Source: Thermogemmatispora sp. (GTDB taxonomy: Bacteria; Chloroflexota; Ktedonobacteria; Ktedonobacterales; Ktedonobacteraceae). Taken from it: DNA of 64,000 bases. Shown piece after piece: positions 4,075 to 36,776 of the stretch. The translations under genes were made by a program, and so were the position numbers. The notes under the pieces were generated by a model, which was not told the origin of the DNA, ran no database searches, and worked only from the letters and a program-made list of their open reading frames with translations. The stretch spans positions 19,323 to 83,322 of the forward strand of contig NZ_JADGIA010000003.1 in the NCBI RefSeq assembly GCF_019683635.1, given 5' to 3'. How positions within the stretch are numbered: position 1 is the first letter of the stretch; the number at the start of each line of letters is the position of its first letter.

Positions 4075-6678
4075 TCAGGCAGTGATAGGAACATTCCAGT
4101 TCCCGCCGCCGTTGTTGTCCCAGTTATTCGCGTCGTCATGGAAGGCGAAATTGATCTGGGTGGCATCGGTCGGCACGCTGATCGTGACCTGCCAGAAGCC
4201 ATCGCTGCGCTTCACCAGGGCGGCATCGGGAGGAATGTTCTGCCAGCCGTTCTCGCCCCAGCGGATATAGACATGGGTATGTGAGGCCAGCCAGCCGTTA
4301 TAGTAGATTGTCAGTGCCTTGCCGGGATGGAGCTGATTGGGGTCATAGTCGACCACCCAGCCGCTATGAGGCTGGTAAGCGTTTGTCACATAGCGACTGT
4401 AGGTGATCGAAGGCATGTCCACCACGCGGTGATTGGCCTCAGAGAAAAGCAAGACGATATACTCGCCCATTGCCCAGTTGAGCGGGTTCATCGACTTCGT
4501 TGGGGTACCGGGTGTATAGCCGCTAGGGGCGGCCACATCCCAAATCTGTTCGGGGATCATGCCCGAGGCGTTGGCCGCGGCCATGAGCGCGCTCAGGTAG
4601 AGATCGGCGTCACCGCCGGCGGCGATGGTATAGATCCCGCGCTCAGCCGTTAGGACTGGCCACAGGCGTCCGATGCCCGTACCATTGTAGTTCGAACCAT
4701 CGCTATGCTCACCGTAGCCATCGTGGTTGTAGCGGAACCAGTAAGGGTAGCCATTGATCGTCTCCTTGATGGTGGCATCGATCACCGGCAAGGAGAGCGT
4801 AATATAGGGCGAGTTGGCCGGCATCACTCCCAGACGCACCAGCTCCAGGAAGCCGGCATCCACAATTGTCCGCTCATCGTAGGTGCCCCCGCCGTTGGCG
4901 ATCGTAATGGAGGCGCCATCATTGGGGTTACCATTGCCATCGATGCGCTCAAAGTAGTAGCCGCCCCCCAGTGGTCCAGTGGTCGTGAAGGTCCAGTTTT
5001 GGACCATGCCCTGATAATAATCGGCGGCATTGGTATAGCGCGTCTGATCGGTCGTATCTCCGTTGATACGGGCGATATCGGCGGCGCAGAGCAGACCGGC
5101 GATCTCTGCCGCGATTGTCGACGGGCTATAGCCGCTGTTCTCCTCCCAGCGCTCTTGGCCAGTGCGCGGGCCATTATTGACGATATAGTCGGCGGCCTTC
5201 TTGATGTGGTTCACAAACGTGCTGTTATCAGTCACGCCGAGCTTCCAGGCCAGGATGATCGGAAAAGCCTGCTCATCCATCTGGATGCCGTTCCAGTAGG
5301 GTGTTCCATTGACATAGCTATTCTGCGGGAAGTGTCCATCGGACTGCTGTTGAGTATTGAAAGCCCATTGCACGGCCCGCAGGGCGTCCGCGCTGTCGCC
5401 GGCCACAATCAGGGCGCTAGCGATCTTGTACATATCGCGCTCCCAGACCAGGTGATAGCCGGCGTCGCTATCGCCATTGCTGTCACCCCAGGGAACGCCC
5501 AGGCCGGCCACAAAGGCCCCTGTCTGCTTATCCTGCGAAGCCTTCAGCACATTCGCAGCCAGGTAGTACTCCTGCTGACGGGCCTGCTGGATCGCTGTCG
5601 TGCTGCCGACGGCTGGCGGGCTGGTGAGACTGTTATCGAAGCTATTCCACTGGGTGACATAGGTCGCCAGCATGTTCGAGGTATCGCTCAAGGTGGCATT
5701 GAGCGTCTGCTCAGCGACCGTAGCAGCGGAGGTACTGCCGCTGGTCTGACCGAAGGAGAGGACGAGATTAAAGGTGATCGAGGTGGCGGTACTCGTATTG
5801 ACGCTGCCGCCGTTGGAGAGATCGAGCAGGCCTGTCTGGGCCGTATTGCCATTGCTGGCCAGGCTATACGTATAGCTCATCGTATAGTCTGGGCAGGTGC
5901 TGCTGCCGCAGTTACTAGAGGCCTTCAGGTCGGTCCAGCCATCGTTGACCCCGACAAAGCCTGAGCTGGTCATGCCGGAGACATAGGGGATCGAGGCCGC
6001 CAGGGCACTGGCATAGTTACCTGAGCTATCGGTTGTCACCAGCATTGTGCGACCGTTGTAAGTCTGGGTCGAGCTGGTATTGTTGTTGCCGGCATTGTGA
6101 ATGGCCGGGTTATAAAGGACATAGAGCAGGTAATTCGAGAGGGTGCCACTGAGGGCGGTAAACGTCACCTGCTGAATCAGCGAATTGCGAGCAGGATCGG
6201 TGTAGATGATCTTCGTGATGCGGTAGCGTCCGTTGTTGGCGGTGTTCGTCACCTGCCAGGCCAGCGAGTGGGCATTGTAGAGCTGGACAGTGGAGGTGGT
6301 GGCGACCTTCTCCTCGTCGACCCAGGTATGGCCGCTGTCGCCGATCAGGAACTGCAAATCGGTGGTGTTGGCCGTATCGGCAGTAGGGAAGAAGACCTCG
6401 CTGATGATGCCGTTGTAGCCGGTGAACCAGACATCGCTAGTAGTGTTGGCAGCGGTGCCAAGGAAAGCCTTGTTCGAGGGCGCCCAGATAGAGGAGTAGC
6501 CTGGGCCGTTGGGCGCCGTACCTGCCGCTCTCGCCTGATGGGAACCGCTAGAAAGAAGCAGCGCACAGACAAGCAGGAACGCCAGCAGGCCAGAGCGCCC
6601 GAGGCGGAAGAACCAGGCACAGGCAGCGTGCCAGTGCACAGAGTCGGGTGGTGCTGCATCATGCGTATTGCTGCCCAT
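4075..6678 (-). CDS. Secreted GH15 glucoamylase/glucodextranase with C-terminal starch-binding module (CBM25-like)
   Basis: Signal-like N-terminus and glucodextranase N-domain (VWFTGYNGIISEVFFP). GH15 motifs YHLVWERD and RWEE. C-terminal VYIRWGENGW...FAFHDDANNWDNNGGGNW. Confidence 0.88.
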   Translation of the reverse strand: MGSNTHDAAPPDSVHWHAACAWFFRLGRSGLLAFLLVCALLLSSGSHQARAAGTAPNGPGYSSIWAPSNKAFLGTAANTTSDVWFTGYNGIISEVFFPTADTANTTDLQFLIGDSGHTWVDEEKVATTSTVQLYNAHSLAWQVTNTANNGRYRITKIIYTDPARNSLIQQVTFTALSGTLSNYLLYVLYNPAIHNAGNNNTSSTQTYNGRTMLVTTDSSGNYASALAASIPYVSGMTSSGFVGVNDGWTDLKASSNCGSSTCPDYTMSYTYSLASNGNTAQTGLLDLSNGGSVNTSTATSITFNLVLSFGQTSGSTSAATVAEQTLNATLSDTSNMLATYVTQWNSFDNSLTSPPAVGSTTAIQQARQQEYYLAANVLKASQDKQTGAFVAGLGVPWGDSNGDSDAGYHLVWERDMYKIASALIVAGDSADALRAVQWAFNTQQQSDGHFPQNSYVNGTPYWNGIQMDEQAFPIILAWKLGVTDNSTFVNHIKKAADYIVNNGPRTGQERWEENSGYSPSTIAAEIAGLLCAADIARINGDTTDQTRYTNAADYYQGMVQNWTFTTTGPLGGGYYFERIDGNGNPNDGASITIANGGGTYDERTIVDAGFLELVRLGVMPANSPYITLSLPVIDATIKETINGYPYWFRYNHDGYGEHSDGSNYNGTGIGRLWPVLTAERGIYTIAAGGDADLYLSALMAAANASGMIPEQIWDVAAPSGYTPGTPTKSMNPLNWAMGEYIVLLFSEANHRVVDMPSITYSRYVTNAYQPHSGWVVDYDPNQLHPGKALTIYYNGWLASHTHVYIRWGENGWQNIPPDAALVKRSDGFWQVTISVPTDATQINFAFHDDANNWDNNGGGNWNVPITA

Positions 6679-6992: not shown

Positions 6993-7104
6993 TCTCTTGC
7001 AGGCTCATGTGCTGAACATATCAGACACAATGAGCGTGCGAAGGGGATCTTTCACTCTTGACTGATCATTGGGGCCTACCTGGAAACAATGGAGGAGCCT
7101 GGCG

Positions 7105-10100
7105 ATGATGCGTCAGGGCCAGCGACTTGGCAATTACCACCTGATTCGCCTGCTAGGCAGCGGATCATATGGGGCGGTCTATCTGGCCGAGCATCTCTAC
7201 TTGAAAACTCAGGTTGCGATCAAAGTTCTCACGCAGCTTCTGAAAGAAGAAGATGAGCAGGCTTTTTTGCACGAAGCCCAGATTCTAGCCCGCTTGCGCC
7301 ACGAACACATCGTGCCTGTGCATGAGTTTGCCATCGAGCGTGGTCTGCCCTATCTTGTCATGGAGTACCTGCCGGAAGGGACCCTACTCGACAGGCATCC
7401 GCGCGGTACGCGTCTTCCTCTTCCTACCGTCGTCAGCTACGTTTACCAGCTGGCAGGCGCTTTGCAATATGCCCACGATCGGAATATTGTTCATCGGGAT
7501 GTCAAGCCGGCGAACGTCCTGCTTGGGAGCAAAGGGCTGCTCTTAAGCGATTTCGGGATTGCTCTGCCGCTGTTAAGGAAAGAAGGGGTTGGCGAGTCGG
7601 CACCAGTTGGTACGCTGCCCTATATGGCTCCCGAGCAATTCCGCGGGCGGCCAAGCTTTGCCAGTGATCAGTATGCCCTGGCCATCATGGCCTATGAGCT
7701 GCTGTGTGGCGCGCGACCTTTCCAGGGTGGGGCTGCTGACTTGATGAACCAGCACCTCACCAAAGAGCCACCAGCGCTGCGTGAGCATGATCCTGCACTG
7801 CCGGAGTCAGTCGACCGTGTCATTCGCCGTGCCCTCGCCAAAAAAGCGGAGGACCGCTATCCGGCCATCATCCTCTTCGCCCGCGCCCTGGGGAAGGCTG
7901 TCAGTGAGGCGATGTCGAGGGAGGAGATCGACAAAAGCCTGACCTGGCGACCGTTAGAGGTACGGTCTCGTTCACGGGCTGGCGACGCTCAACACAGTTG
8001 GAGCGTGATTCTGGCCATCCAAGATGAGCAGTCTCCCATTGGCCAGCGCCTTCAGCAAGAGCTGCAGGAGCGTGGTCTGACCGTGATCATGGCGCAGCGC
8101 TATGAGCAAGCTGATGAGCTGAAGCTCCGACAGGTGATGCGTGCAGCTCAGCTCGTGCTGGTAGGACTTACGGCCCAGGATCAGGCCCTGCCTGTTTCTG
8201 AGCAGCTTCTGCAGATGGCCCACCTCTATCAGCGTCCAGTGCGCTATCTCCTGGTAGGCGCAGCGCCCCCGGCTGGGAGCACCTGGCCGCTGGCAGAGAT
8301 GGTGCCGCCGGCCCTCCTCAGCGATGGAAGCGGTGCCCGCTATCGACAAGCCCTGGATGAGATTATACAGCAGATTGAAGATGGACAGTGGGGAAGGCAG
8401 CGTCAGAAGCAAGCCATAGTTACGCTGGAAGAGGAAGGGAAGGCGCGCAATCCCTACAAGGGGCTGCGAGCCTTTACTCAGGAGGACCAGGGTGATTTCT
8501 TTGGACGAGAGCGGCTCGTGCAGGAGCTACTCGCGCGGCTCGCCACTCTGCTGGGCCAGGACCCGGCTCAGTCCTCCTCTGCGCGCCTGCTGGCTCTCAT
8601 CGGAGGCATCGGTGTTGGCAAATCGAGCCTTCTCATGGCTGGCCTGCTCCCCCGGCTGCAAGCTGGGGCGCTACCAGGTAGTGAGAACTGGCGCTATCTC
8701 TCCGCCTTCAGGCCAGCCTATCGGCCACTAGAGGCGCTCGCGGAGGTGCTGGCCGCCGGCGGCAACCAGCAAGAGAAGGAAACTATTCACACGGCCCTTG
8801 TCCAGGGAGATAGCGCCGCCCTGCACCGATTGGCCCTCACCCTGGCCCCTGATCATTCCTATCTTGTCCTGGTAATTGACCAGTTCGAAGAACTGTTCAC
8901 TCCCGAAGTAGCCGAAGCTGAGCGGAGGCGCTTCATCGATCTGATCGCCACCGCGGTCTCTATCCCTCATGGTAAGCTGCTCCTCCTCCTCACACTGCGC
9001 GCTGATTGTTACGATCGGCCTCTAGCCTACCCGTCCCTGGCGCAGCTCTTGCAGGGACCAGCGCATTGTCCGATAGGGCCTATGACCCTTGATGAACTGC
9101 GGGCCGTCATCGAACAGCCAGCCCTGCTGCCCGATGTCCAGCTGGTCTTCGATGAAGATCTGGTGGCCGACTTGCTCCTGGATATCCGTGACCAGCCCGG
9201 TGCTCTGCCTCTGCTGGAATTCACCCTGGACCAGCTCTTTCAGCAGCGGCGCGGTAGCCGTCTCACGCGGCGCGCTTACGAGGCCATTGGAGGAGTACGT
9301 GGCGCCCTGGCCCGCCACGCCGAGACCACTTACGCTTCTCTCCCCTCAGATCGCCATCGCTTCCTGGCGCGCCAGCTCTTCCTGCGCTTGGTGCAGCCAG
9401 GACGAGAGGGTCAGGCTCCCATGCGCCGCCAGGCGCGCCAGAGTGAGTTGGCGCTCCCAGATGAGCAGGAGACTCGTCTGATGCAGGAGACGTACGAGGC
9501 CTTTGTGGCCGCGCGCTTACTGACGGTCGAGCGCCGGGCGGGGGAGGTGATGTTAGAGGTCAGTCATGAGGCTCTGCTGCAGGAATGGCCACAGCTGGTG
9601 GACTGGGTGCGTCAGGCCGGCGAAGATCTTCCTCTGCAACAGAGGGTGAGCGCTGATGTGCAGGAATGGTGGCGGCGCGGCAAGCCGCGGGACCGCCTCT
9701 ACCGCGGTTCGCAGCTCAAAGATGCCTTGCGCTGGCAAGAGCGTGCCTCGCTGAGTCTCCAGGAAGCGATGTTTCTGCGCGCCAGTCGGAGAGCCAGAAC
9801 ACTGGCGCGGGTCAGGCTAGCGCTGGTCGTTCTTCTCATCCTGGGCCTGCTCATTCCTGCTAGCTGGCTGCTCTATCAGCAGGTAGCGCCACTGCAGGTG
9901 ACCTCGCTCCAGGACGACGGACCAGGCTCGCTGCGACAGGTCATTGCTGAAGCGAAGCCTGGCCAGACCATTAGCGTGCGGCCTGGCCTGACCGGTGTTC
10001 TCTCTCTCACGCACAATCTCGATATCGGCAAGAGCCTCACCATTCGGGGGCCAGGAGCTGCCAAACTCACGATTAGCGGCCAGCCGGGCCTCGAAGCCAG

Positions 10101-11637
10101 CTATGCCATCCGCATTCTGGCTCGGACAAGTGTCACTTTCAGCGACCTCAGCTTCAGTGAGCGACAGCCAAGCCCAGGTGATTTCTTCCTCAATCAGGGG
10201 AATCTGACCTTGCAACGCTGCCGCATTGCTCAGATTACCATTTCCCCCGTCAGCGAGAGCAATGGGCCATCCCTGCCCGGAGGCAGTGCGATCGAGAATA
10301 GCCAGCAAGGCAATCTGACCCTGCTACAGAGCACCATAACGCATGTCCAGGCCAGCGGAGTTGAGGCCCACGCCGCAGCTATTCTCAATAATGGAGGGAA
10401 GGCCACTCTGAACGCGAGCCAGATTACGGGCAATAGCGTTAAGGATAGTGGGACCAGCAGCAACGGTGCAGCAGGAGCGGTTATCGTCAGCCTCGGAGGC
10501 AGCCTGACCCTGAACGGCAGCAACGTTTCTGACAATCAGGTCAGCAGCCAGGAAAGTGCCTTCGGCGGCGGCATTTTCGCCCTCAATAGCACCGTTCAGC
10601 TCATCAACACGCGCCTGGTTGACAACAGCATCGTGGCAGCTCAGGACGCGGCAGGCGCAGGTCTACAGGCCTCTGGAAGCAAAGTAACTCTTAAGAACAC
10701 GCTGGTCAGCAACAACAAGGTGCAGGCCCATTTCGCTGTCGGGGCGGGCCTCTTCCTGCTAGGAGGGCAGCTGACCATCATGGAGAGCACGGTGAGTGGC
10801 AACCGTGCCAGTAGTCAGGATGACCGCGCTGCGGGAGGAGGCGTGTTTGCCGAAGGGACGCTGACGATCAGCAACAGTACTGTCAGCCATAACGTGGTGA
10901 TCTCGACCTCCTCGGTCAAAGAGGCTGCCATTGGCGCCGGCATCGGGGTTACAGGTAGCCTGGTCATGACGGCCAGTACCGTGGCAGACAATCAGGCCCA
11001 GGCCCCAGCCAGTGATGCCGAAGGTGGAGGCCTCTTAGCGCTCTCTCTGTCTTCATCTTCGGGATCTTCGGGCGTTCAGAAGACTATGCTCACGCTGGTC
11101 AATTCCACGCTTTCGGGTAATAGTGTACAGGGGAAACGGAGAAGCTCTGGAGGCGGCTTGTTCATCAACGAGAGCGATGGCCGGCTCGACTTCTGCACTA
11201 TCTATGGCAACCACGCGGCTGCCGGAGGCGGCCTGTTCATCTTACCAGGGAGTGGAGAGGGACAGGATTCACAGGTTACACTCCTGAACTCCCTGCTGGC
11301 CGCTAATACTGCTAACATGGCCCCTGACCTGTTGGGGCAGGTGACGAGCGGAGGCTATAACCTCATTCAGCGAGCCTCTGGGGCCAAATTTCTCGACCCT
11401 TCTGGACGTCACCATCTTGATCTCGTCGACACTGGCTCGACCCCACTCGACATTGATCCACTGCTGCGTGCCAACGGGGGACCCACACAGACACATGCCC
11501 TGCTGGCGGGTAGTCCTGCGATCAACCGTATTCCTGCCGCCGACTGCGATGTCGCGATCGATCAGCGCGGCCTGCGACGACCACAGCAGGGAGCCTGCGA
11601 TATCGGGGCCTACGAGTATAGCCCCACAGCGCAGTGA
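7105..11637 (+). CDS. Multidomain membrane receptor: Hanks Ser/Thr kinase + TIR-like + nSTAND1-type P-loop NTPase + TM + extracellular beta-helix (choice-of-anchor Q-like end)
   Basis: Kinase motifs LGSGSYGAVY, VAIK, HRDVKPAN, DFG and YMAPE. STAND motifs NPYKGLRAF..FFGRE, GGIGVGKSS and LVIDQFEE. One hydrophobic helix RLALVVLLILGLLIPASWLLY. Then DDGPGSLRQVI, GGG/N-rich repeats and NGGPTQTHALLAGSPAI...DQRG..CDIGAYE. Start placed at ATG 7105 after GGAGGAG. Confidence 0.85.
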   Translation: MMRQGQRLGNYHLIRLLGSGSYGAVYLAEHLYLKTQVAIKVLTQLLKEEDEQAFLHEAQILARLRHEHIVPVHEFAIERGLPYLVMEYLPEGTLLDRHPRGTRLPLPTVVSYVYQLAGALQYAHDRNIVHRDVKPANVLLGSKGLLLSDFGIALPLLRKEGVGESAPVGTLPYMAPEQFRGRPSFASDQYALAIMAYELLCGARPFQGGAADLMNQHLTKEPPALREHDPALPESVDRVIRRALAKKAEDRYPAIILFARALGKAVSEAMSREEIDKSLTWRPLEVRSRSRAGDAQHSWSVILAIQDEQSPIGQRLQQELQERGLTVIMAQRYEQADELKLRQVMRAAQLVLVGLTAQDQALPVSEQLLQMAHLYQRPVRYLLVGAAPPAGSTWPLAEMVPPALLSDGSGARYRQALDEIIQQIEDGQWGRQRQKQAIVTLEEEGKARNPYKGLRAFTQEDQGDFFGRERLVQELLARLATLLGQDPAQSSSARLLALIGGIGVGKSSLLMAGLLPRLQAGALPGSENWRYLSAFRPAYRPLEALAEVLAAGGNQQEKETIHTALVQGDSAALHRLALTLAPDHSYLVLVIDQFEELFTPEVAEAERRRFIDLIATAVSIPHGKLLLLLTLRADCYDRPLAYPSLAQLLQGPAHCPIGPMTLDELRAVIEQPALLPDVQLVFDEDLVADLLLDIRDQPGALPLLEFTLDQLFQQRRGSRLTRRAYEAIGGVRGALARHAETTYASLPSDRHRFLARQLFLRLVQPGREGQAPMRRQARQSELALPDEQETRLMQETYEAFVAARLLTVERRAGEVMLEVSHEALLQEWPQLVDWVRQAGEDLPLQQRVSADVQEWWRRGKPRDRLYRGSQLKDALRWQERASLSLQEAMFLRASRRARTLARVRLALVVLLILGLLIPASWLLYQQVAPLQVTSLQDDGPGSLRQVIAEAKPGQTISVRPGLTGVLSLTHNLDIGKSLTIRGPGAAKLTISGQPGLEASYAIRILARTSVTFSDLSFSERQPSPGDFFLNQGNLTLQRCRIAQITISPVSESNGPSLPGGSAIENSQQGNLTLLQSTITHVQASGVEAHAAAILNNGGKATLNASQITGNSVKDSGTSSNGAAGAVIVSLGGSLTLNGSNVSDNQVSSQESAFGGGIFALNSTVQLINTRLVDNSIVAAQDAAGAGLQASGSKVTLKNTLVSNNKVQAHFAVGAGLFLLGGQLTIMESTVSGNRASSQDDRAAGGGVFAEGTLTISNSTVSHNVVISTSSVKEAAIGAGIGVTGSLVMTASTVADNQAQAPASDAEGGGLLALSLSSSSGSSGVQKTMLTLVNSTLSGNSVQGKRRSSGGGLFINESDGRLDFCTIYGNHAAAGGGLFILPGSGEGQDSQVTLLNSLLAANTANMAPDLLGQVTSGGYNLIQRASGAKFLDPSGRHHLDLVDTGSTPLDIDPLLRANGGPTQTHALLAGSPAINRIPAADCDVAIDQRGLRRPQQGACDIGAYEYSPTAQ

Positions 11638-26938: not shown

Positions 26939-28312
26939 CTATGTGCCGGATGAAGCGCTGTCCTCCGCCTCTGCTTGGCTAGCGGGACGACGCGGCACAA
27001 GGTGGATATCGATGTCGCTGCTCAGGCGGAGCAGGCGATTGACCAATGAGCCGCGCAGCAGCTCCTCCCAGCGGCGGCGTGTTGGGAGGCCCAGGACGAT
27101 CAGGGTGACGCGGCGCTCGCGGGCGATGGTAGCGAGCGCCTGGGCGATGTCGTGGCTGCGCACATGGAGCACCTCGGCCCCCAGGTCCTCAGCGAGCAAG
27201 GCATGTTCTTCAAGACGGCGCCGCGCAACCTCTTCCTCAGCGCGCAAGCGACGGCCATATTTGAGCAGGCGCACCAGGCGTGCCGTCATGGCGGAGAAGC
27301 CGGTTGGCTCAACAGAGACAGCGATCAGCTGAGCCTGGAGGCTGTGCGCCAGGCGCCAGGCATCGCGGATCACCTGGCGGCTGTGAGGACGGTGATCAAA
27401 GCCGACAAGGACGCGCTCGCAGGCCGGCCAGAGCTTGTTGATCCTATGCGAAGCCATGTATTGCTGCAGCTGAGCCTCGGTCTTCTCTGCGGTGCGCCGG
27501 AGCGCCAGTTCGCGCAGAGCCGTCAGGTTCCCCTCGCGGAAGAAGTTGCTGAGGGCAGCATCGATGCGTTCGCGGGGGTAGATGTTGCCGTGCTTCATGC
27601 GCTGGCGCAGGGCATGGGGCGAGATATCGATCAGCTCAACCTCGTCGGCCTGATCGAGAATCCAGTCAGGCAGCGTCTCGCGCACCTGCACGCCTGTAAT
27701 GTTGGCCACAATATCGTTGAGGCTTTCCAGGTGCTGGATGTTGAGGGTGGTCACCACATCGATGCCGGCCTCCAGCAGCTCCAGCACGTCCTGATAGCGC
27801 TTTTCGTGCCTGGAGCCGGGGACATTGGTATGGGCCAGCTCATCGACCAGCACCACCTGGGGACGTCGCGCCAGGATGGCCTGCAGATCCATCTCTTCAA
27901 GGGTCAGGCCGCGGTAGGCGATCTTCTTGCGAGGGATGACCTCCAGATCGCCGATCTGCTCGGCGGTACGTGGGCGCCCGTGGGTCTCGACGTAGCCGAT
28001 GACCACATCAGTTCCGCGACTCTTGCGCCGGTGGCCCTCGTTGAGCATCGCATAGGTTTTGCCCGCTCCCGGGGCGGCGGCCAGGTAGATGCGCAGGCGC
28101 CCGCGGCGGCCCGAAGAAGGCCGTGGGGGGTGCGCCGCCGTTGCCGGGGTTGGGCCTGTTGCTGGTCTGTGGTCGCTGCCAGCCGTAGCGGCCCCCTGTT
28201 GGGGTTGCTGCTGCCCGGCCAGATCCTCATCGCGCAGGCCGTAGCGCTGCAGCAGTTCCTCGGGAGAGGGGCGCCTATCGCTGGAATCACGGCTTGCTCT
28301 CTGCTCGCTCAT
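26939..28312 (-). CDS. kdpD: Truncated KdpD: N-terminal sensor (KdpD domain) + USP domain only, no TM, GAF or histidine kinase
   Basis: GRLRIYLAAAPGAGKTYAML, VDELAHTN, TTLNIQHLESLND and LRELALR, then USP-like ERVLVGFD...IDIHLV and stop. Confidence 0.88.
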   Translation of the reverse strand: MSEQRASRDSSDRRPSPEELLQRYGLRDEDLAGQQQPQQGAATAGSDHRPATGPTPATAAHPPRPSSGRRGRLRIYLAAAPGAGKTYAMLNEGHRRKSRGTDVVIGYVETHGRPRTAEQIGDLEVIPRKKIAYRGLTLEEMDLQAILARRPQVVLVDELAHTNVPGSRHEKRYQDVLELLEAGIDVVTTLNIQHLESLNDIVANITGVQVRETLPDWILDQADEVELIDISPHALRQRMKHGNIYPRERIDAALSNFFREGNLTALRELALRRTAEKTEAQLQQYMASHRINKLWPACERVLVGFDHRPHSRQVIRDAWRLAHSLQAQLIAVSVEPTGFSAMTARLVRLLKYGRRLRAEEEVARRRLEEHALLAEDLGAEVLHVRSHDIAQALATIARERRVTLIVLGLPTRRRWEELLRGSLVNRLLRLSSDIDIHLVPRRPASQAEAEDSASSGT

Positions 28313-29038: not shown

Positions 29039-31252
29039 TTAGAGCGTTAAGTGCAACAGCGAAAGCAGCAGATCGATGAGCTTAATGCCCACGAAGGGGG
29101 CCACGATGCCGCCCAGGCCGTAGATCAGCAGGTTGCGCCGCAGCAGTGGCCCGGCACCGATCGGGCGGTATTTCACCCCGCGCAGGGCCAACGGGATCAG
29201 CGCGATAATGATCAGAGCGTTAAAGATGACCGCCGAGAGCACCGCGCTGTGTGGGGTAGCCAGGCCCATAATATTGAGGGCATTCAGCTGCGGATAGGTG
29301 GCCGAGAAGGCCGCCGGGATAATGGCGAAGTACTTCGCCACATCGTTGGCGATGCTGAAGGTTGTCAGCGCACCGCGCGTGATCAGCAGCTGCTTGCCGA
29401 TCTCCACGATCTCGATCAGCTTCGTCGGATTCGAGTCCAGATCGATCATATTGGCGGCCTCTTTGGCGGCCTGAGTCCCGCTATTCATGGCGACGCCGAC
29501 ATCGGCCTGCGCCAGCGCGGGGGCATCGTTGGTCCCGTCGCCGGTCATAGCGACCATGCGTCCGCCGGCCTGCTGCTCGCGGATCAGCTTCAGCTTGGTC
29601 TCCGGCGTAGCCTGAGCCAGGAAGTCATCGACGCCGGCCTCGCGAGCGATCGCAGCCGCAGTCAGGGGGTTGTCGCCTGTGATCATAATTGTACGAATGC
29701 CCATGCGGCGCAGCTGCTCGAAGCGCTCACGCATGCCGCCCTTGACAATGTCCTTCAGCTCGATCACGCCCAGTACGCGGGCCTGTTCCTGGTGATCCTG
29801 GCCGGTGTGCCAGGTCTCAGCGACCACCAGAGGCGTGCTTCCGGCGCGGGCGATCTCATCGACTGTGCGCTGCAGCAGCTCACCATGTGTATCATCGCCT
29901 CCGTGTTCACGCGCATAGGCTATAATCGCCTCAGCAGCCCCTTTGCGAATGGTGCGCACAGGAGGAGTCGCCTCCTCTTCGTCCTTGATGCTGGCAGCCT
30001 GCCCGTCGGCATCAGCCAGCACGTCAAGGCCGCTCATGCGCGTCATAGCTGAGAAAGGCACGAAGCGACTGGCCTGCTTCTGGAGACTGGTCTCCTCGCC
30101 GATTCCGAAACGCTCGCGGGCCAGCGCCACAATCGAGCGACCCTCGGGCGTCTCGTCGGCCAGACTGGCCAGCAGAGCTGCTCGGGCCAGAGCCTGCTCG
30201 TCGATGCCGGGCAGGGGGAGAAAGCGTGTTGCCTGGCGATTGCCCAGGGTAATAGTTCCCGTCTTATCGAGCAGCAACACATCGACATCGCCGGCGGCCT
30301 CTACAGCGCGTCCGCTCATGGCCAGCACATTGCGCTGTACCAGGCGATCCATGCCCGCGATACCGATGGCGGAGAGCAGGCCGCCGATTGTCGTCGGGAT
30401 TAAACAAACCAGCAGGGCGATGAGGGTTGCAATCGAGACCGGGCTTCCCGAGTAAATGGCGAATGGCTCCAGCGAGACCACGACCAGCAGAAAGATGATG
30501 GTCAGGCTGGCCAGCAGAATATTGAGGGCGATCTCATTCGGGGTCTTCTGGCGCTGCGCTCCCTCGACCAGGGCGATCATGCGATCGAGAAAGGTTTCGC
30601 CGGGATTGGCGCCGATGCGCACGATAATCCAATCTGAGAGCACGCGTGTCCCGCCGGTCACAGCGCTACGGTCGCCGCCGCTCTCGCGGATGACCGGGGC
30701 CGACTCGCCAGTGATGGCCGATTCGTCGACCGCCGCCACCCCCTCGATCACCTCGCCATCGCCAGGAATGACATCGCCAGCCTCTACCAGCACATAATCG
30801 CCTTTGCGCAGGGCGGGTGCGGGCACCTCCTCCCAGGGAGCCGAGCGCTCGGGACGGCGCAGGCGCTTGGCCATTGTGGTCGTACGCGCGCGGCGCAGTG
30901 TCTCAGCCTGAGCCTTGCCGCGTCCCTCAGCCATTGCCTCTGCGAAGTTGGCGAAGAGCACCGTAAACCAGAGCCAGAGACTGACGGCCAGCACAAAGAG
31001 CGTCTCGTTATGTAAACGCTCAGCAGGGAAGGTCGGCCCGGGGGCGGTCAGTAGCAGGCGCACGAACTCGATAGTCGTGATCACGCTACCGACCTCCACC
31101 ACGAACATCACCGGATTCTTGATCTGCCAGCGTGGATCAAGCTTACGGAATGCATCCAGTAAGGCATGGCGCACGATCTGCGGATTGAAAGACGAGACGG
31201 CTCCTTTGCGCCGTGTCTTCCACGGTCGCACTTCCAGTGTGTGGCTACTCAT
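29039..31252 (-). CDS. kdpB: K+-transporting ATPase subunit B (P-type ATPase)
   Basis: [44 protein letters not shown]. Confidence 0.97.
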
Positions 31253-31255
31253 TCT

Positions 31256-32992
31256 TTAAAAGGTCCTTCCTGCCAGCATCAGCAAGTGTTCAACAATTGG
31301 CCCGAGGGCGTAAGCCGGGAAGTAGGTCAAAGCTCCCACGATCAGGATAACTCCCACCAGAAGCGAGACGAAGAGCGGCCCTGTCGTCGGGAAGGTGCCT
31401 GGTCCGGCGGGGACCACGCGCTTACTGACGAGCGAGCCGCCAAAGGCCAGGATGGGGGTCAGGAAGGCGAAGCGCCCGATCAGCATGGCAAAGGCCCCGG
31501 TCCAGTTGTAGAAAGGCGTATTGCCAGCCAGGCCGGCGAAGGCTGAACCGTTGTTGCCGTTTGAGGAGGTATACAGATAGAGAATCTCCGAAAGGCCGTG
31601 CGGGCCGGTGTTTGTCGTCAACGCAGCCAGGCCCTGGGGCAAGACGCTGGCCACGGCGGCAAAGCCCAGGATCGTGGCCGGGCTAATCAGCAGTGCCAGA
31701 GCGGCCATCATGACCTCTTTACGCTCGATCTTCTTCCCGAGGTACTCTGGCGTGCGCCCCACCATCAGCCCGGCGATAAAGACCGTCAGGATGGCGAACA
31801 TCAGCATGCCGTAGAGGCCCGAACCGACACCGCCGAAGATCACCTCACCCAGGGCTATATTGGCCAGAGGTACCAGACCGCCAAGCGGTGTATAGCTATC
31901 GAGGAAGCTATTGACAGCCCCACAGGAAGTAGCGGTTGTCGTCACCGTAAAGAGCACAGAGTCAGTGATGCCGAAGCGCACCTCCTTCCCCTCCATGTTG
32001 CCGCCGGGCTGCAGGGCGGAAGCCTGCTGGTTGACCCCAAGATGCGCGAGTAAAGGATTCCCGCCTTGCTCGGCGGGCAGGGCCACAGCCAGGCCGAGGA
32101 CAAAGAGGATGGCAGCGGCGGCCCACAAAGCCCAGCCCTGACGGGTATTGCCGACCATGCGTCCGAACATGTAGAACATGCCGGCACCGATGCTGATGAT
32201 CGCCAGCATCTCGATCAGATTCGTCAGGGCGGTCGGGTTCTCATAGGGGTGGGCTGAGTTGGCGTTGAAGAAGCCGCCGCCATTGGTCCCCAGCTCTTTG
32301 ATGATCTCTTGGGAGGCCACTGGTCCCTGAGCGATGACCTGCAGCCCTCCGTCGAGGGTATGGACGACCGTGTAAGAATTGAAATTCTGAACCACGCCCT
32401 GTGAAACCAGCATCAGGGCCCCGACCAGGCAGATGGGCAGCAGGATATAGAGCGTGGCGCGCGTCAGGTCAACCCAGAAATTGCCAAGGTGCTCGGCGCT
32501 GCGGCGCGCCAGACCGCGCACTAAAGCCACGGCCAGGGCCATACCGGTGGCCGCCGAGATAAAGTTATGATAAGCCAGACCGGCCATCTGGGTCAGGTAG
32601 CTCATGGTCTGCTCACCAGCGTAGTTCTGCCAGTTCGTGTTCGTCGTAAAGCTGGCGGCTGTATTAAACGCCAGCTGTGGCTCAACTGGCCCCAGATGCT
32701 GCGGATTGAGCGGCAGCCATTGCTGTGTCCGCTCCAGCCCGTAGAGCAAGAGCATGCCAGCCAGATTAAAAACCAGCATGGCGATCACGTAGCCGGTCCA
32801 GCGTTGTTCCCGTGCGGGATCAATACCGCAAGCGCGGTAGAGGAAGCGCTCTAGCGGAGCGAAGACCGGCGACAGCCAGGTGCGCTCGCCGTTGAAAACT
32901 CTGGTCATATAGAGACCGAGCGGCTTCGTCAGCGCTAAAACTAGCGCTAAGAAGAGCACGATCTGTACAAGGCTATTGAACGTAATGAACAT
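31256..32992 (-). CDS. kdpA: K+-transporting ATPase subunit A
   Basis: [41 protein letters not shown]. Confidence 0.97.
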
Positions 32993-34390: not shown

Positions 34391-34490
34391 AGTGTAGATC
34401 AGGATCGCTCAGGATGCGTTCCAAGTTTGCCCCACTTTGCTCAAGCTTTTCTCCAGAGGGCGGAGCAAGGACTCAAGACAAACTCAAGAC
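34391..34490 (-). promoter_or_regulatory. Putative activator-dependent promoter with phased direct repeats (candidate KdpE boxes)
   Basis: Minus-strand -10 TACACT (34391-34396) with no good -35. Direct repeats TCAGGAT x2 (34399, 34409) and ACTCAAGAC x2 (34471, 34482). Confidence 0.4.
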
Positions 34491-35218
34491 TCCGAAGGGT
34501 CAGGTTCACGAGCGGCCTCGACCTCATCGCTGAAGCGGTAGCCCACACCGGGAATGGTCAAGATTAAGCGTGGATTGCCGGGTCGAGGCTCGATCTTCTG
34601 CCGGAGCTGTGCCACATAGACGTGGAGGCTATGCATGCGATCATGTGAGGCTGCCCCCCAGAGCATTTGCAGCAACATCTGGCGTGTCAGCAGCTTACCG
34701 CGATGGGTTACGAAGATTCTCAGCAGCTCATACTCGGTCGGGGTCAGGGCCACATCGTGTCCACTGAGCAACACCCGGCGATTTCCCAGGTCGACCACCA
34801 GTGGCCCGATGCGCACCTGCTCCTCCGCGGAGTGTCCATTTTGTCGCTCCAGCCGGCGCAGGGCTACGCGGATACGGGCCAGCACCTCGGCGATCCCGAA
34901 CGGCTTGGACACGTAGTCGTCGGCTCCCAAATCCAGGGCTTCTACCTTATCGTGCTCACTATTTTTCACCGAGAGCACAATGATTGGCGTCGACGAGACA
35001 GCCCGGATACGGCGACAGACCTCCAGGCCGCTTACATCAGGCAGCAGCAAATCGAGCAGCACGAGATCGGGATGAGCGCGGCTGAACAGCGTCAGCGCCT
35101 CCTCGCCGCTGCCGGTACACTGGACCCGGTAGCCGTGAGCAATCAGACTGCGCTCCAGAGCGCCGGCCAGTTCCGGCTCATCCTCGACCACCAGGATGGT
35201 GGCCCCAAAGCTTGCCAT
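34484..35218 (-). CDS. kdpE: OmpR-family response regulator KdpE
   Basis: ILVVEDE, LVLLDL, DYVSKPF, LTPTEYELL, LHVYVAQLRQKIE, TIPGVGYRF. Start refined to ATG 35218. Confidence 0.88.
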   Translation of the reverse strand: MASFGATILVVEDEPELAGALERSLIAHGYRVQCTGSGEEALTLFSRAHPDLVLLDLLLPDVSGLEVCRRIRAVSSTPIIVLSVKNSEHDKVEALDLGADDYVSKPFGIAEVLARIRVALRRLERQNGHSAEEQVRIGPLVVDLGNRRVLLSGHDVALTPTEYELLRIFVTHRGKLLTRQMLLQMLWGAASHDRMHSLHVYVAQLRQKIEPRPGNPRLILTIPGVGYRFSDEVEAAREPDPSES

Positions 35219-35693
35219 AGTATGACACCTCCCGCAGCCAGGCAGCAGAACCAGACCATCTGCGTCTCCGCTGCTACTGGACCGTTTGTCCTTAACTACC
35301 CTCAGCAAGGGCCAGTATAGCCTGAGAACAGTCAAAAAACGGGCAGAGGTTCGGGGTCTGGTTCTCAGGATTTCCTCAAAAAATGACCCTGTTCTGCCTC
35401 GATGCCTCAGCCCCTGGAAAGCAAGCTGCCAGCTATGTCGAGCCGAAAGAAGGGGAGGCCTTGCGCAATCAATAAGGATGAGGTTGGAGAAAAGAAGAGA
35501 GTGGGAGCCGGGCAGGACCGCTGCCTGCCCTCACAGCCGTGCGAGGCGGGCCATCGAGGGCGGGCGGCGGCGATGGGTCAGGAGCAGACGCAGGGAGTGT
35601 GGCCCGTGGCCGTCCTGGCCCATCGTCGCCTGGCCGAGAGAGAAAGAGGAAGGGAAAAGCCAGACGTCAGCGGCCTGTGTCTGCGTAGGAGAC

Positions 35694-36776
35694 TTAGCCC
35701 CAGACCTCGCGCGCCACACTCGCCACCAATTCCAGCTTGCGGCGCTGGTCTTCGAGCGACAGGCGATTCCCTTCGATGGTAGAAGCGAATCCACACTGCG
35801 GGCTAAGCGCCAGCCGCTCCAAAGGAATATAGCGCGTCGCCTCCTCAATACGCCGGCGCAGCTCATCGCGGCTCTCCAGCTGCGGCTTCTTCGTCGTCAC
35901 CAGGCCCAAGACCACAAAGCGGTCCTCTGGCATATAGCGCAGTGGCTCGAAGCCGCCCGAGCGCTCATCGTCATACTCCAGCAGGAAGCGCTGGAAATGC
36001 GTCTTCTGGAAGATGCGAGCGATTGGCCCATAATCGCCGCTGGCATAAAACTTGCTTTGATTATTGCCGCGGCAGATATGGATACCGAAGGTAATTCCCG
36101 GATGGCCATCGATAATGGCATTATCCAGCTCGATGCAGCGATCGATGAGCTTCTCGGGATCGTTGCCGCGCTGGCGATAGCCCTCGCGGATCTGGGGGTC
36201 GAGCAGGGCAGCGTACTGAGGGGCATCGATCTGGATATAGGTGCAGCCCAGGCGGATCAACTCCTCGACTTCGCGGCGAGAGATATCAACGATATCGGCG
36301 AGGTAGGCATCGAGCGTAGGGTAAGCACCCTTCGACTTCTCGGGGTCGTAGTAGGCTGCGGCCTGCTGGGCGCTAATCATGGTCACCTTACCAGCGTGCT
36401 TCTTGCGCGCACGCAGATAGACCCATTCTTCGCTGCACATGTTGCGTCGCCAGCGCAAGCGATCTACCACCACTGGGCGGCGCATTACCAGCTCCTCGCC
36501 GCTTTCATCACGGAAAGGAATAGCCCAGCCGCCATACTTATCAAAGCCGTCGAGAGCCTCGATGAGATGGCCGAAGAAAGCATAACGTCGCTGCTCTCCA
36601 TCGGTAATCACCTCGATGCCGGCCTCCTCCTGCAGCGCGATCGCCTCATCAACGGCCCGGTCCTCGATCGCCTTAAATTCGGCGGCGCTGATCGCTCCCT
36701 CCTCTAACTGCTGGCGCGCTTGATGGAGATAAGGGGGACGGAGCAAACTGCCGATTACTTCGCTATGGTAGACCAT
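35694..36776 (-). CDS. Cobalamin-independent methionine synthase II family (stand-alone MetE catalytic barrel)
   Basis: VIGSLLRP, ITDGEQRR, IQIDAP; Zn ligands HICRGN, LEYD and PQCGFAS. Confidence 0.85.
   Translation of the reverse strand: MVYHSEVIGSLLRPPYLHQARQQLEEGAISAAEFKAIEDRAVDEAIALQEEAGIEVITDGEQRRYAFFGHLIEALDGFDKYGGWAIPFRDESGEELVMRRPVVVDRLRWRRNMCSEEWVYLRARKKHAGKVTMISAQQAAAYYDPEKSKGAYPTLDAYLADIVDISRREVEELIRLGCTYIQIDAPQYAALLDPQIREGYRQRGNDPEKLIDRCIELDNAIIDGHPGITFGIHICRGNNQSKFYASGDYGPIARIFQKTHFQRFLLEYDDERSGGFEPLRYMPEDRFVVLGLVTTKKPQLESRDELRRRIEEATRYIPLERLALSPQCGFASTIEGNRLSLEDQRRKLELVASVAREVWG

What the first reader, a model, noticed from the sequence alone, without database searches (positions are those of the whole stretch)
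7105..11637. One-piece transmembrane NLR-like receptor: kinase - TIR - STAND - TM - extracellular beta-helix
Seen: an intact Hanks kinase (~7105-7900), a TIR-like fold (~7995-8390), an nSTAND1-type NTPase (NPYKGL ~8446; Walker A GGIGVGKS ~8602-8625; Walker B LVIDQFEE ~8863-8892) and one TM (~9810-9880). About 580 aa of GGG/N-rich right-handed beta-helix follows, ending in a choice-of-anchor Q-like motif. Knowledge: STAND NTPases (NLRs, Avs) usually sense cytoplasmic ligands through C-terminal repeats and oligomerise to activate N-terminal effectors. Inference: here the sensor is outside the cell and resembles a polysaccharide-binding beta-helix. A surface or glycan cue could drive STAND oligomerisation and kinase autophosphorylation, like a receptor kinase and an NLR in one chain. 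It may act in development, contact sensing or immunity. This is the best candidate for an undescribed system in the window.
Basis: partly seen in the sequence, partly recalled or inferred. Interest (0 to 1): 0.75.

Follow-up and report, generated by a model that had tools for sequence, protein, structure and literature searches.

The report
Membrane-spanning kinase–TIR–STAND receptor with outside beta-helix
This Thermogemmatispora gene encodes one 1510-residue membrane protein with an active kinase, a degenerate TIR and an NLR-type ATPase switch inside the cell and a long beta-helix outside. It belongs to a large, uncharacterised family of membrane-spanning NLR-like proteins in Chloroflexota.

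Summary
ORF 7105-11637(+) encodes Pkinase (4e-44), a TIR-derived domain, nSTAND1 (1e-108), one strong TM (aa 905-923), a ~585-aa right-handed beta-helix (AF2 pLDDT 85) and a choice-of-anchor Q end (1e-21).

An N-in/C-out topology is well supported:
- Positive-inside rule holds in 96 of 100 homologs.
- Composition shifts sharply after the TM.
- Stand-alone relatives of the ectodomain carry a signal peptide where this protein has its TM.

The gene is not a one-off. TIR-nSTAND1-TM-variable ectodomain (beta-helix or WD40) is widespread in Chloroflexota, and 82% of the closest nSTAND1 clusters have the TM. The kinase is an addition seen in Ktedonobacteria.

In Thermogemmatispora the gene appears single-copy. 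It is syntenic among housekeeping genes and under purifying selection in every module. Its TIR falls below Pfam detection and has Gln at the family's conserved Glu.

Most likely it is an outside-in receptor. Ectodomain clustering would drive STAND oligomerisation and kinase activation.

nSTAND1 with kinase or TIR effectors, and "transmembrane STAND" sensors, are already mentioned in the literature. I therefore rate it a new variant of a known kind, with no experimental work behind it.

The parts
7090..7096 (+). Shine-Dalgarno-like GGAGGAG ahead of ATG 7105
   Evidence: Read directly from the sequence. The database protein of 1510 aa starts at this ATG.
7105..11637 (+). Complete CDS, 1510 aa plus stop. 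It is flanked by intergenic gaps of about 430 bp and 310 bp, so it is probably monocistronic.
7135..7860 (+). Hanks-type Ser/Thr protein kinase domain (aa 11-252). All catalytic motifs are intact.
   Evidence: Pfam Pkinase 4.3e-44. Motifs confirmed. K40, E57, HRD, N137, DFG and APE are conserved in 119-120 of 120 homologs. dN/dS is about 0.15.
7915..8001 (+). Variable linker (aa 271-299)
   Evidence: dN/dS is 0.5-1.5 and identity is 16-66% among orthologs.
8002..8394 (+). TIR-derived domain (aa 300-430), degenerate in this clade. Gln367 sits at the family's conserved Glu/Asp column, with Glu366 next to it.
   Evidence: 28 of 32 homologous segments hit TIR_2, but the window segment does not. 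AF2 pLDDT 80. Foldseek top hits are SARM1, RPS4/RRS1 and TIR-STING with TM 0.5-0.57. Column analysis. dN/dS 0.17-0.27.
8452..9690 (+). nSTAND1 NTPase module (aa 450-862). Walker A is at 8602-8625, Walker B at 8866-8892, and the sensor Arg is R632.
   Evidence: Pfam PF20703 1e-108, 364.8 bits. K506, S507, D592 and R632 are invariant in 120 of 120 homologs. dN/dS is 0.09.
9691..9801 (+). Conserved juxtamembrane segment (aa 863-899; RLYRGSQL..A..W...E..FL..S), followed by an Arg-rich stretch.
   Evidence: Y866, G868, L871, W877, E887 and F890 are invariant in alignment A2.
9817..9873 (+). Single transmembrane helix (aa 905-923), predicted N-in/C-out.
   Evidence: KD 2.71. Present in about 110 of 120 homologs and 116 of 141 nSTAND1 representatives. 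96 of 100 obey positive-inside.
9880..10194 (+). Ectodomain N-terminal cap (aa 926-1030) with the VT.L.D.GPGSLRQ.I motif. It is the most conserved part of the ectodomain.
   Evidence: dN/dS is 0.04-0.07 against L001/L003/L004 and 0.18 against L005. Invariant columns. The same motif follows the signal peptide in stand-alone relatives. There is a weak profile match to the VexL cap.
10195..11304 (+). Right-handed parallel beta-helix core (aa 1031-1400). About a dozen coils carry GGG[ILV] turns and Asn ladders.
   Evidence: Pfam Beta_helix. AF2 pLDDT 84.8, pTM 0.89. Foldseek hits are to AlgE4, PL6, GH87 and tailspikes. Motif census. dN/dS 0.2-0.5.
11461..11619 (+). Choice-of-anchor Q domain (aa 1453-1505; DQRG..RPQ..ACDIGAYEY) with a conserved Cys pair.
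   Evidence: NCBIfam NF041518 1.1e-21, 76.8 bits against a cut-off of 25. C556/C573 (ectodomain numbering) are invariant.

Best explanation
The gene encodes a single-pass membrane receptor of the nSTAND1 family. 

Shown by sequence analysis:
- The N-terminal 900 aa are cytoplasmic. They hold a catalytically intact Hanks kinase, a TIR-derived domain that has lost the family's conserved Glu, and an intact P-loop STAND NTPase.
- One TM helix follows a strictly conserved juxtamembrane segment.
- The C-terminal 585 aa form an extracytoplasmic beta-helix of the CSLREA / Pmp-like / choice-of-anchor Q surface-protein type.

Inferred mechanism:
- The ectodomain is the sensor. It lies across the membrane, so it cannot clamp the NTPase directly as cytoplasmic STAND sensors do.
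- The signal is therefore most likely ligand-driven clustering or re-orientation of ectodomains on a polyvalent surface or cell-wall ligand.
- That change passes through the TM and the conserved juxtamembrane segment. It permits nucleotide exchange and STAND oligomerisation at the membrane.
- Oligomerisation brings the kinase domains together for trans-autophosphorylation and phosphorylation of cytoplasmic targets.
- The degenerate TIR serves mainly as an assembly scaffold.

Inferred role: in Thermogemmatispora it behaves like a conserved physiological sensor of the envelope, a surface or cell contact, rather than a fast-turning-over defence gene. Paralog-rich relatives in other Ktedonobacteria look more like an NLR-style repertoire.
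For: - Domains and motifs.
- TM and topology:
  - KD 2.71, the only strong segment.
  - The TM is conserved about 400 aa after Walker A in about 110 of 120 homologs and in 116 of 141 nSTAND1 cluster representatives.
  - K/R counts are 4.0 on the N-side against 0.8 on the C-side, and 96 of 100 members obey the rule.
  - Charged residues are halved and S/T/N/G rise from 18% to 43% after the TM.
- Ectodomain as a surface module:
  - The AF2 model is a beta-helix.
  - Stand-alone relatives are named CSLREA, outer membrane repeat or choice-of-anchor Q proteins. They co-occur with DUF11, PKD, Chlam_PMP and T9SS-tail domains.
  - 62 of the 106 relatives that start with Met begin with a signal peptide followed directly by the same cap motif.
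  - Paralogs with post-TM WD40 propellers can end in SH3_3.
- Sensor position: family members without a TM carry WD40 repeats in the same place. N-terminal modules stay constant while the C-terminus varies.
- No other cytoplasmic sensor domain exists between nSTAND1 and the TM.
- All modules are kept by purifying selection out to saturating dS.
- Gene context:
  - One copy was found per Thermogemmatispora genome.
  - Synteny is identical in T. carboxidivorans.
  - The neighbourhood is housekeeping, with no PP2C, FHA, STAND, TIR or mobile genes.
- STAND activation by oligomerisation is established knowledge (MalT, PMC4381067).
Against: - There is no experimental or expression evidence of any kind.
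- Topology is predicted, not shown.
- A single TM is a poor conduit for conformational signals, so the clustering model is an inference.
- The ligand is unknown, and no conserved partner or substrate gene was found. An FHA-wHTH neighbour occurs only in one subclade.
- Family membership (nSTAND1 'conflict systems', a TIR, paralog expansion with module swapping) fits an immune role at least as well as a physiological one.
- Glu366, next to the lost Glu, might still support TIR catalysis.
Confidence: 0.5

Rival explanations
1. It is an NLR-like immune or conflict sensor. The ectodomain detects an invader at the cell surface, such as phage adsorption, a competitor's enzyme or non-self hyphae. STAND oligomerisation then triggers growth arrest or death of the cell or hyphal compartment through the kinase, and possibly the TIR.
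For: - nSTAND1 was defined in predicted counter-invader systems with kinase and TIR effectors.
- TM-type sensors on bacterial NACHT proteins are proposed to sense periplasmic signals, and 'transmembrane STAND ATPases' appear as defence sensors.
- Other Ktedonobacteria and Chloroflexota genomes hold several paralogs with swapped N- and C-terminal modules.
- Some paralogs sit next to integrase, TIR-NACHT or TIR-TPR genes.
- The beta-helix core is the least constrained folded part (dN/dS up to 0.5).
- The host is filamentous and multicellular (my own knowledge of Ktedonobacteria).
Against: - In Thermogemmatispora the gene appears single-copy. It is syntenic across species with dS of about 1 and sits among housekeeping genes.
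- Every module, including the ectodomain, is under purifying selection.
- The TIR lacks the family's conserved Glu.
- PADLOC hits are kinase-only. No Avs or NACHT defence model is among the 25 best of 34 PADLOC families.
Confidence: 0.3
2. It is an inside-out or anchoring device. The beta-helix is an adhesin or cell-wall-active module displayed on the surface. The cytoplasmic kinase-STAND part either regulates it or is simply tethered by it to a place in the envelope.
For: - Relatives of the ectodomain are stand-alone surface or adhesin-like proteins.
- Structural neighbours are polysaccharide epimerases, lyases and hydrolases.
- There is a weak match to the VexL depolymerase cap.
Against: - No catalytic-site match was shown. 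The only PDB sequence match covers the N-terminal cap.
- The post-TM module is swapped for WD40 propellers in paralogs while the cytoplasmic part stays fixed. That pattern is typical of a sensor, not an effector.
- Energy-dependent regulation of an extracellular domain through one TM has no obvious mechanism.
Confidence: 0.1
3. The hydrophobic helix is not a membrane span, and the whole protein is cytoplasmic. It would then be an ordinary soluble nSTAND1 protein with a repeat sensor.
For: - WD40 repeats, usually cytoplasmic, follow the same helix in many paralogs.
- No topology experiment exists.
Against: - KD is 2.5-3.1 over 19 residues, and the positive-inside bias holds in 96 of 100 members.
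- Composition switches strongly after the helix.
- The ectodomain type is otherwise found behind signal peptides.
- Choice-of-anchor Q and SH3_3 are surface-associated modules.
Confidence: 0.04

Closest known systems
nSTAND1-centred predicted conflict systems (Kaur, Iyer, Burroughs & Aravind 2021, PMC8195603)
   Same: The NTPase clade is the same (PF20703, 1e-108). The N-terminal effectors are of the listed kinds, S/T/Y kinase and TIR, with a variable C-terminal sensor.
   Different: The described forms carry cytoplasmic FGS/lectin sensors, often with DGRs or EAD adaptors. Here there are two N-terminal modules in tandem, a conserved TM and an extracytoplasmic beta-helix. No EAD, DGR or partner gene is present.
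Bacterial NACHT proteins with 'TM region' C-termini (Kibby et al., bioRxiv 2022.07.19.500537) and 'transmembrane STAND ATPases' of Pepco/protease modules (bioRxiv 2025.11.14.688446)
   Same: Both are STAND NTPases whose sensor side includes membrane spans and is predicted to read periplasmic or intramembrane signals.
   Different: Those are NACHT-clade proteins typified by multiple TM regions, or protease-linked proteins from Actinobacteria and cyanobacteria. This one is nSTAND1 with a single TM, a large folded ectodomain and kinase plus TIR. None of these has been characterised experimentally for the TM sensor.
Receptor-type Hanks kinases (M. tuberculosis PknB with PASTA, PknD with a beta-propeller)
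   Same: Cytoplasmic N-terminal kinase, one TM and an extracellular sensor domain. Some paralogs even carry a post-TM beta-propeller. The PknB/PknD architecture is from my own knowledge.
   Different: About 600 aa of TIR plus STAND NTPase sit between the kinase and the TM. The NCBIfam PknB_PASTA score of 209.9 is far below the 450 cut-off.
M. tuberculosis PknK (a kinase fused to a MalT-like STAND)
   Same: A Hanks kinase fused N-terminally to a STAND NTPase (PMC4381067).
   Different: PknK belongs to the MalT/LuxR-type STAND clade, is soluble and has cytoplasmic repeats. It has no TIR, TM or ectodomain.
Toll-like receptors, plant LRR receptor kinases and TIR-NLRs (analogy only)
   Same: A solenoid ectodomain, a single TM and a cytoplasmic TIR and/or kinase. 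A TIR followed by a STAND NTPase, as in plant TNLs. Activation by induced oligomerisation (my own knowledge).
   Different: The polarity is opposite (ectodomain at the C-terminus). The solenoid is a beta-helix, not LRR. The NTPase is a different STAND clade. All three modules are in one chain. There is no evidence of common descent of the architecture.
Sea cucumber membrane NLRs (AjNLRC4 and AjNLR-new; PMC13133943)
   Same: STAND (NACHT) proteins with a TM, localised experimentally to the membrane in that paper.
   Different: They are eukaryotic, NACHT-clade and carry Ig domains. They lack kinase and TIR, and the architectures arose independently.

Membership tests
Hanks-type Ser/Thr protein kinase (PF00069) | Profile match above the gathering score | tested here: met
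   151.3 bits against 31.7, aa 11-252.
Hanks-type Ser/Thr protein kinase (PF00069) | Catalytic residues: Gly-loop, VAIK Lys, alphaC Glu, HRD Asp, Asn, DFG Asp, APE | tested here: met
   All are present and conserved in 119-120 of 120 homologs.
Hanks-type Ser/Thr protein kinase (PF00069) | Phosphotransfer activity | not testable with these tools
   Needs an autophosphorylation assay.
nSTAND1 (PF20703) STAND NTPase | Full-length profile match above the gathering score | tested here: met
   364.8 bits against 27.1, covering profile positions 1-378 of 379.
nSTAND1 (PF20703) STAND NTPase | Walker A GxxxxGK[ST], Walker B hhhhD plus acidic residues, sensor Arg | tested here: met
   GGIGVGKS at 500-507, VLVIDQFEE at 588-596 and R632. 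K506, S507, D592 and R632 are invariant in 120 of 120 homologs; E595 is conserved in 117 and E596 in 113.
nSTAND1 (PF20703) STAND NTPase | Nucleotide-dependent oligomerisation switch | not testable with these tools
   Needs biochemistry or cryo-EM.
TIR domain (PF13676 TIR_2) | Profile match | tested here: not met
   The window segment has no hit at E<=0.01, and the whole protein has none at E<=1. 28 of 32 homologous segments do match, with a best E of 1.2e-13.
TIR domain (PF13676 TIR_2) | Flavodoxin-like TIR fold | tested here: inconclusive
   AF2 pLDDT 80 with alternating beta/alpha elements. The best Foldseek hits are TIRs, but with TM 0.5-0.57, E about 1e-3, and mixed with other flavodoxin-like folds.
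TIR domain (PF13676 TIR_2) | Catalytic Glu at the start of alphaC (NADase-type TIRs) | tested here: not met
   The family column is E in 94 and D in 13 of 120. The window and its orthologs have Q (R in one), with Glu at the preceding position. Equivalence to the catalytic Glu rests on the profile alignment to TIR-SAVED and carries a register uncertainty of 1-2 residues.
Right-handed parallel beta-helix (PF13229) / choice-of-anchor Q (NF041518) surface proteins | Profile matches above the cut-offs | tested here: met
   Beta_helix 39.7 against 25.9. choice_anch_Q 76.8 against 25.
Right-handed parallel beta-helix (PF13229) / choice-of-anchor Q (NF041518) surface proteins | Beta-helix fold | tested here: met
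   AF2 pLDDT 84.8, pTM 0.89, with repeating three-strand coils. All listed Foldseek hits are beta-helix proteins.
Right-handed parallel beta-helix (PF13229) / choice-of-anchor Q (NF041518) surface proteins | Export to the cell surface | tested here: inconclusive
   This protein has no N-terminal signal peptide. A TM signal-anchor precedes the cap motif exactly where relatives carry a signal peptide. Localisation is not testable here.
Known anti-phage STAND systems (Avs, bNACHT) in PADLOC | Match of the NTPase or sensor to a defence-system model | tested here: not met
   The 25 best of 34 PADLOC hits all cover only the kinase domain (PD-T4-6, mad6, MkoA, PglW).
PknB/PASTA receptor kinases (NF033483) | Equivalog score and PASTA ectodomain | tested here: not met
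   209.9 bits against a 450 cut-off, kinase domain only. No PASTA domain was found.

The most novel reading that the evidence does not exclude
Chloroflexota possess a large class of true transmembrane NLR-like receptors. In these, an extracellular solenoid or propeller sensor is coupled through one TM helix and a conserved juxtamembrane segment to a STAND oligomerisation switch. Binding of a surface ligand would assemble a membrane-attached signalosome with kinase and/or TIR output. In effect this is receptor-kinase, Toll-like-receptor and NLR logic in one bacterial polypeptide. It would use an activation mechanism (clustering across the membrane) that differs from the intramolecular sensor-NOD autoinhibition of all characterised STANDs.
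Probability: 0.35. Interest if true: 0.8.

Novelty: new variant of a known kind. Interest (0 to 1): 0.55.

Why it matters
All STAND/NLR proteins with a worked-out mechanism, as far as I know, read cytoplasmic ligands through a sensor that directly restrains the NTPase. If the TM-bearing nSTAND1 proteins signal from outside to inside, the paradigm extends to surface sensing, and a different coupling mechanism is required. The family is large and the closest nSTAND1 clusters mostly have the TM (116 of 141). It occurs in filamentous, multicellular bacteria, where self/non-self, contact or envelope-damage sensing is plausible. This ortholog is a convenient entry point because it appears single-copy, is conserved, comes from cultivable thermophiles (T. 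tikiterensis T81, T. aurantia, T. carboxidivorans) and has a readily assayable kinase output.

Tried and rejected
1. Expression evidence. No RNA runs were indexed for the T81 ortholog or the window. The Islam et al. 2019 supplement held as text covers Thermomicrobium roseum only. No expression data were obtained.
2. A conserved partner or substrate. An FHA + Trans_reg_C gene sits 36 bp upstream of paralog P0016. It recurs only in that subclade (L007, remnant in L013) and is absent near the window gene. Rejected as a general partner.
3. Paralogs in the window. None were found by tblastn with each domain.
4. My first reading was that Glu366 is the retained TIR catalytic Glu. A 120-sequence alignment puts the family Glu at column 367, where the window has Gln, so I corrected this.
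5. A single-sequence PDB search with a TIR_2-positive homolog segment gave only noise.
6. A PDB profile search with the ectodomain matched only the VexL cap. This is not enough to assign an enzymatic function.
7. PADLOC hits (PD-T4-6, mad6) are generic kinase-domain matches, not evidence of membership in a defence system.
8. The promoter/terminator scan gave only weak consensus matches and no usable conclusion.
Full report
**1. What is there**

The window holds one long ORF, 7069/7105..11637 on the + strand. ATG 7105 is preceded by GGAGGAG at 7090-7096. The identical 1510-aa protein is on record in the protein collection.

Profile searches place four modules (numbering from ATG 7105):
- Pkinase at aa 11-252, E 4.3e-44.
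- nSTAND1 at aa 450-862, E 1e-108, covering 378 of 379 profile positions.
- Beta_helix at aa 1030-1223, 39.7 bits against a 25.9 cut-off.
- choice-of-anchor Q at aa 1453-1505, E 1.1e-21.

The kinase has a complete catalytic set: GSGSYG, VAIK K40, HRDVKPAN, DFG and APE. The NTPase has Walker A GGIGVGKS (aa 500-507, window 8602-8625) and Walker B VLVIDQFEE (aa 588-596, window 8866-8892). These residues are conserved in 113-120 of 120 homologs, and most are invariant.

A Kyte-Doolittle scan finds one strong hydrophobic segment, aa 905-923 (window 9817-9873), scoring 2.71. Nothing else exceeds 1.7.

**2. The TIR-like region**

The window protein gives no Pfam TIR hit. The segment at aa ~300-430 aligns without difficulty to the equivalent segment of relatives. 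Of 32 aligned segments, 28 score as TIR_2 (best 1.2e-13) and 18 as ThsB_TIR. Only the four Thermogemmatispora sequences fail.

An alignment-backed AF2 model is confident (pLDDT 80, pTM 0.75) and has alternating beta/alpha elements. Its best Foldseek matches are the TIR domains of SARM1, RPS4/RRS1, TIR-STING and SPARTA. The scores are weak (TM 0.5-0.57) and other flavodoxin-like folds are mixed in.

So the domain derives from a TIR. In this clade it is degenerate:
- The betaA 'vFLSxAxxD' motif has become 'VILAIQDEQ'.
- The 'SPxTRSS' motif has become 'TAQDQAL'.
- The family's conserved acidic column (Glu in 94 and Asp in 13 of 120) is Gln in the window and its orthologs, and Arg in one. A clade-specific Glu sits one residue earlier.

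In the profile alignment to TIR-SAVED (7qqk), the family Glu lies at or next to the site of catalytic E84, whose E84Q variant is dead. The exact register is uncertain by one or two residues. I first read Glu366 as the retained catalytic residue and corrected that after the larger alignment. The domain is still under purifying selection (dN/dS 0.17-0.27). A structural or assembly role is therefore more likely than NADase activity.

**3. Topology**

Nothing here is experimental, but several independent lines agree on N-in/C-out:
- The TM is conserved about 400 aa after Walker A in about 110 of 120 homologs. It is also present in 116 of the 141 closest nSTAND1 cluster representatives scored.
- In 100 homologs, the 15 residues before the TM hold 4.0 K/R on average and the 15 after hold 0.8. 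In 96 of 100 the N-side has more, and in none does it have fewer.
- After the TM, K+R and D+E are each halved, and S/T/N/G rises from 18% to 43%.
- The post-TM module is a type normally exported. Its stand-alone relatives are named CSLREA, 'predicted outer membrane repeat' or choice-of-anchor Q proteins. They co-occur with DUF11, PKD, FG-GAP/VCBS, Chlam_PMP and T9SS-tail domains.
- 62 of the 106 stand-alone relatives that start with Met begin with a signal peptide followed directly by the same 'VTN..D.G.GSLRQAI' cap. In the window protein this cap follows the TM by about 8 residues.
- In paralogs the post-TM module is a WD40 propeller. In two of the four examined it ends in a bacterial SH3_3 domain after a Thr/Pro-rich stalk.

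**4. The ectodomain**

An AF2 model built on 14 homologs is confident (pLDDT 84.8, pTM 0.89) and consists of repeating three-strand coils. Every listed Foldseek hit is a right-handed beta-helix: AlgE4 epimerase, PL6 lyases, GH87 glucanases, chondroitinase B and phage tailspikes. TM-scores are low, so this is fold-level likeness only.

The only PDB sequence-profile match is the N-terminal cap of the Vi-antigen depolymerase VexL, at E 1.6e-4.

The coils carry GGG[ILV] turns and Asn ladders. Some relatives score as Chlam_PMP repeats. The ligand is unknown, and 'polysaccharide-binding' remains a guess.

**5. Family and distribution**

The closest genome is Thermogemmatispora tikiterensis T81, at 95% amino-acid identity. 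T. aurantia (90%), T. carboxidivorans (79%) and a Thermogemmatispora MAG (71%) each have one copy among the reported loci. The window's DNA is held in wood-decay metagenome runs.

A census of 77 genome loci shows the following:
- The widespread core is TIR-nSTAND1-TM-variable C-terminus. It occurs in Ktedonobacteria, Anaerolineae and Aggregatilineales, and in one Acidobacteriales MAG.
- The kinase is an extra N-terminal module seen almost only in Ktedonobacteria.
- Several MAGs carry four to seven paralogs with different N- or C-terminal modules.

nSTAND1 as a whole is very large, with 14,853 clusters at 50% identity scoring E<=1e-30.

**6. Evolution and context of this ortholog**

Among five Thermogemmatispora orthologs, every module is under purifying selection out to dS of about 1:

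| Module | dN/dS |
|---|---|
| nSTAND1 | 0.09 |
| Kinase | 0.15 |
| TIR-like | 0.17-0.27 |
| Ectodomain cap (aa 926-1030) | 0.04-0.07 (0.18 against the most distant ortholog) |
| Beta-helix core | 0.2-0.5 |
| Linker (aa 271-299) | about 1, neutral |

The juxtamembrane segment before the TM holds family-invariant residues: Y866, G868, L871, W877, E887 and F890.

Synteny with T. carboxidivorans is complete: GH15 glucodextranase (divergent), this gene, cytidylate-kinase-like, MFS, then FtsX/ABC. The rest of the window is housekeeping: PEPCK, a Mur ligase, the Kdp system, G6PD and UvrB. It contains no PP2C, FHA, second STAND or TIR gene, or mobile element.

Distant family members sit in unrelated contexts, some next to integrase, TIR-NACHT or TIR-TPR genes. 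An FHA-wHTH gene lies directly upstream of one paralog. It is restricted to that subclade.

**7. Mechanism**

Shown by sequence: an intact kinase, an intact P-loop STAND, one conserved TM, a conserved juxtamembrane segment and an exported-type beta-helix.

Inferred:
- The ectodomain is the sensor. It occupies the position where soluble members carry WD40 repeats, and no other candidate sensor exists on the cytoplasmic side.
- In characterised STANDs the sensor and arm restrain the NOD intramolecularly until the inducer binds (MalT, PMC4381067). That is impossible across a membrane.
- The most economical model is ligand-induced clustering or re-orientation, transmitted through the TM and the juxtamembrane segment. 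This would favour nucleotide exchange and STAND oligomerisation.
- Oligomerisation would juxtapose the kinase domains for trans-autophosphorylation. The degenerate TIR would act as a scaffold.

For this ortholog, apparent single-copy status, synteny, housekeeping context and uniform purifying selection favour a conserved physiological sensing role (envelope, surface or contact) over a fast-evolving defence gene. The paralog-rich relatives look more like an NLR-style repertoire. An immune role is the main rival (confidence 0.3).

**8. Comparison with what is known**

- nSTAND1 was defined by Kaur et al. 2021 in predicted counter-invader systems with TIR and S/T/Y-kinase effectors and cytoplasmic FGS sensors.
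- Kibby et al. list 'TM regions' as a class of bacterial NACHT C-termini likely to sense intramembrane or periplasmic signals.
- Kaur et al. 2020 note TM plus extracellular domains in other conflict systems.
- Doré et al. 2024 predict a periplasmic CLec domain on one NACHT DGR target.
- A 2025 preprint names 'transmembrane STAND ATPases' as sensors fused to Pepco-associated proteases.
- Membrane NLRs have been studied in sea cucumber.

I found no paper describing the kinase-TIR-nSTAND1-TM-beta-helix family, or testing any bacterial TM-STAND sensor. Functionally the nearest analogues are receptor-type Hanks kinases (PknB, PknD) and the kinase-STAND fusion PknK. By analogy only, it also resembles TLRs, plant receptor kinases and TNLs.

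**9. Verdict**

The gene is a new variant of a known kind. It is a member of a large, uncharacterised, TM-bearing subfamily of nSTAND1 proteins, with an unusual kinase plus degenerate-TIR effector side and a beta-helix ectodomain. Interest is moderate to high because it offers a tractable entry into surface-sensing STAND signalling. The concept is already in the literature, and the mechanism is inference only.

Noticed in passing
window 26942-28312 (-), with 29042-32992 (-) and 34487-35335 (-): A 457-aa protein has the KdpD N-terminal sensor domain plus Usp but no histidine-kinase portion. It lies next to kdpB/kdpA-like genes, with an OmpR-type response regulator about 6 kb away. This looks like a truncated or split KdpD arrangement.
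   Followed up: no
window 4075-6678 (-): A GH15 glucodextranase-like gene (Glucodextran_N, Glyco_hydro_15 and CBM53 in the T. carboxidivorans ortholog) is divergently transcribed from the receptor gene across a ~430-bp intergenic region. The arrangement is conserved in T. carboxidivorans. Whether there is any functional link to a glycan-like ligand is unknown.
   Followed up: partly
L061, L070, L073, L077 (genome loci of family members): In several MAG loci the nSTAND1 gene is split into two consecutive ORFs in different frames. In L070, for example, kinase-TIR-nSTAND1[460-555] is followed by nSTAND1[6-313]-TM-ecto. These are either pseudogenised paralogs or assembly frameshifts.
   Followed up: no
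L029:7904-11830 and L068:7915-11307: The post-TM regions of these TIR-nSTAND1 paralogs have long 'TLTPIP/TLTPV' repeat stalks, then WD40 propellers, a Thr/Pro-rich linker and a C-terminal bacterial SH3_3 domain. This implies extracytoplasmic WD40 propellers tethered to the wall.
   Followed up: partly
L080:7240-7965: An FHA + Trans_reg_C (winged-helix) regulator lies 36 bp upstream and co-directional with paralog P0016. It is 90% conserved in L007 and a remnant survives in L013. It is a candidate kinase substrate or output for that subclade only.
   Followed up: yes
L002:9032-9580 and L002:19205-21799; L080:1-2483: Distant family members sit near a phage-integrase gene, an HTH + TIR_2-NACHT pair and a TIR_2-TPR giant protein. 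This suggests defence-island-like neighbourhoods, unlike the housekeeping context of the window gene.
   Followed up: no
L054:5866-8868 and L054:9001-10119: Two TIR-nSTAND1 genes lie in tandem. The first has no TM by the threshold used, and the second is cut off by the contig end before the TM position. This is a local paralog duplication in an Aggregatilineales MAG.
   Followed up: no
window 35286-36704 (+), 43255-44226 (-), 58563-59669 (+), 61917-62672 (-): These sizeable ORFs (252-473 aa) have no Pfam match at E<=1e-6. Some overlap ORFs on the other strand and may not be genes.
   Followed up: no
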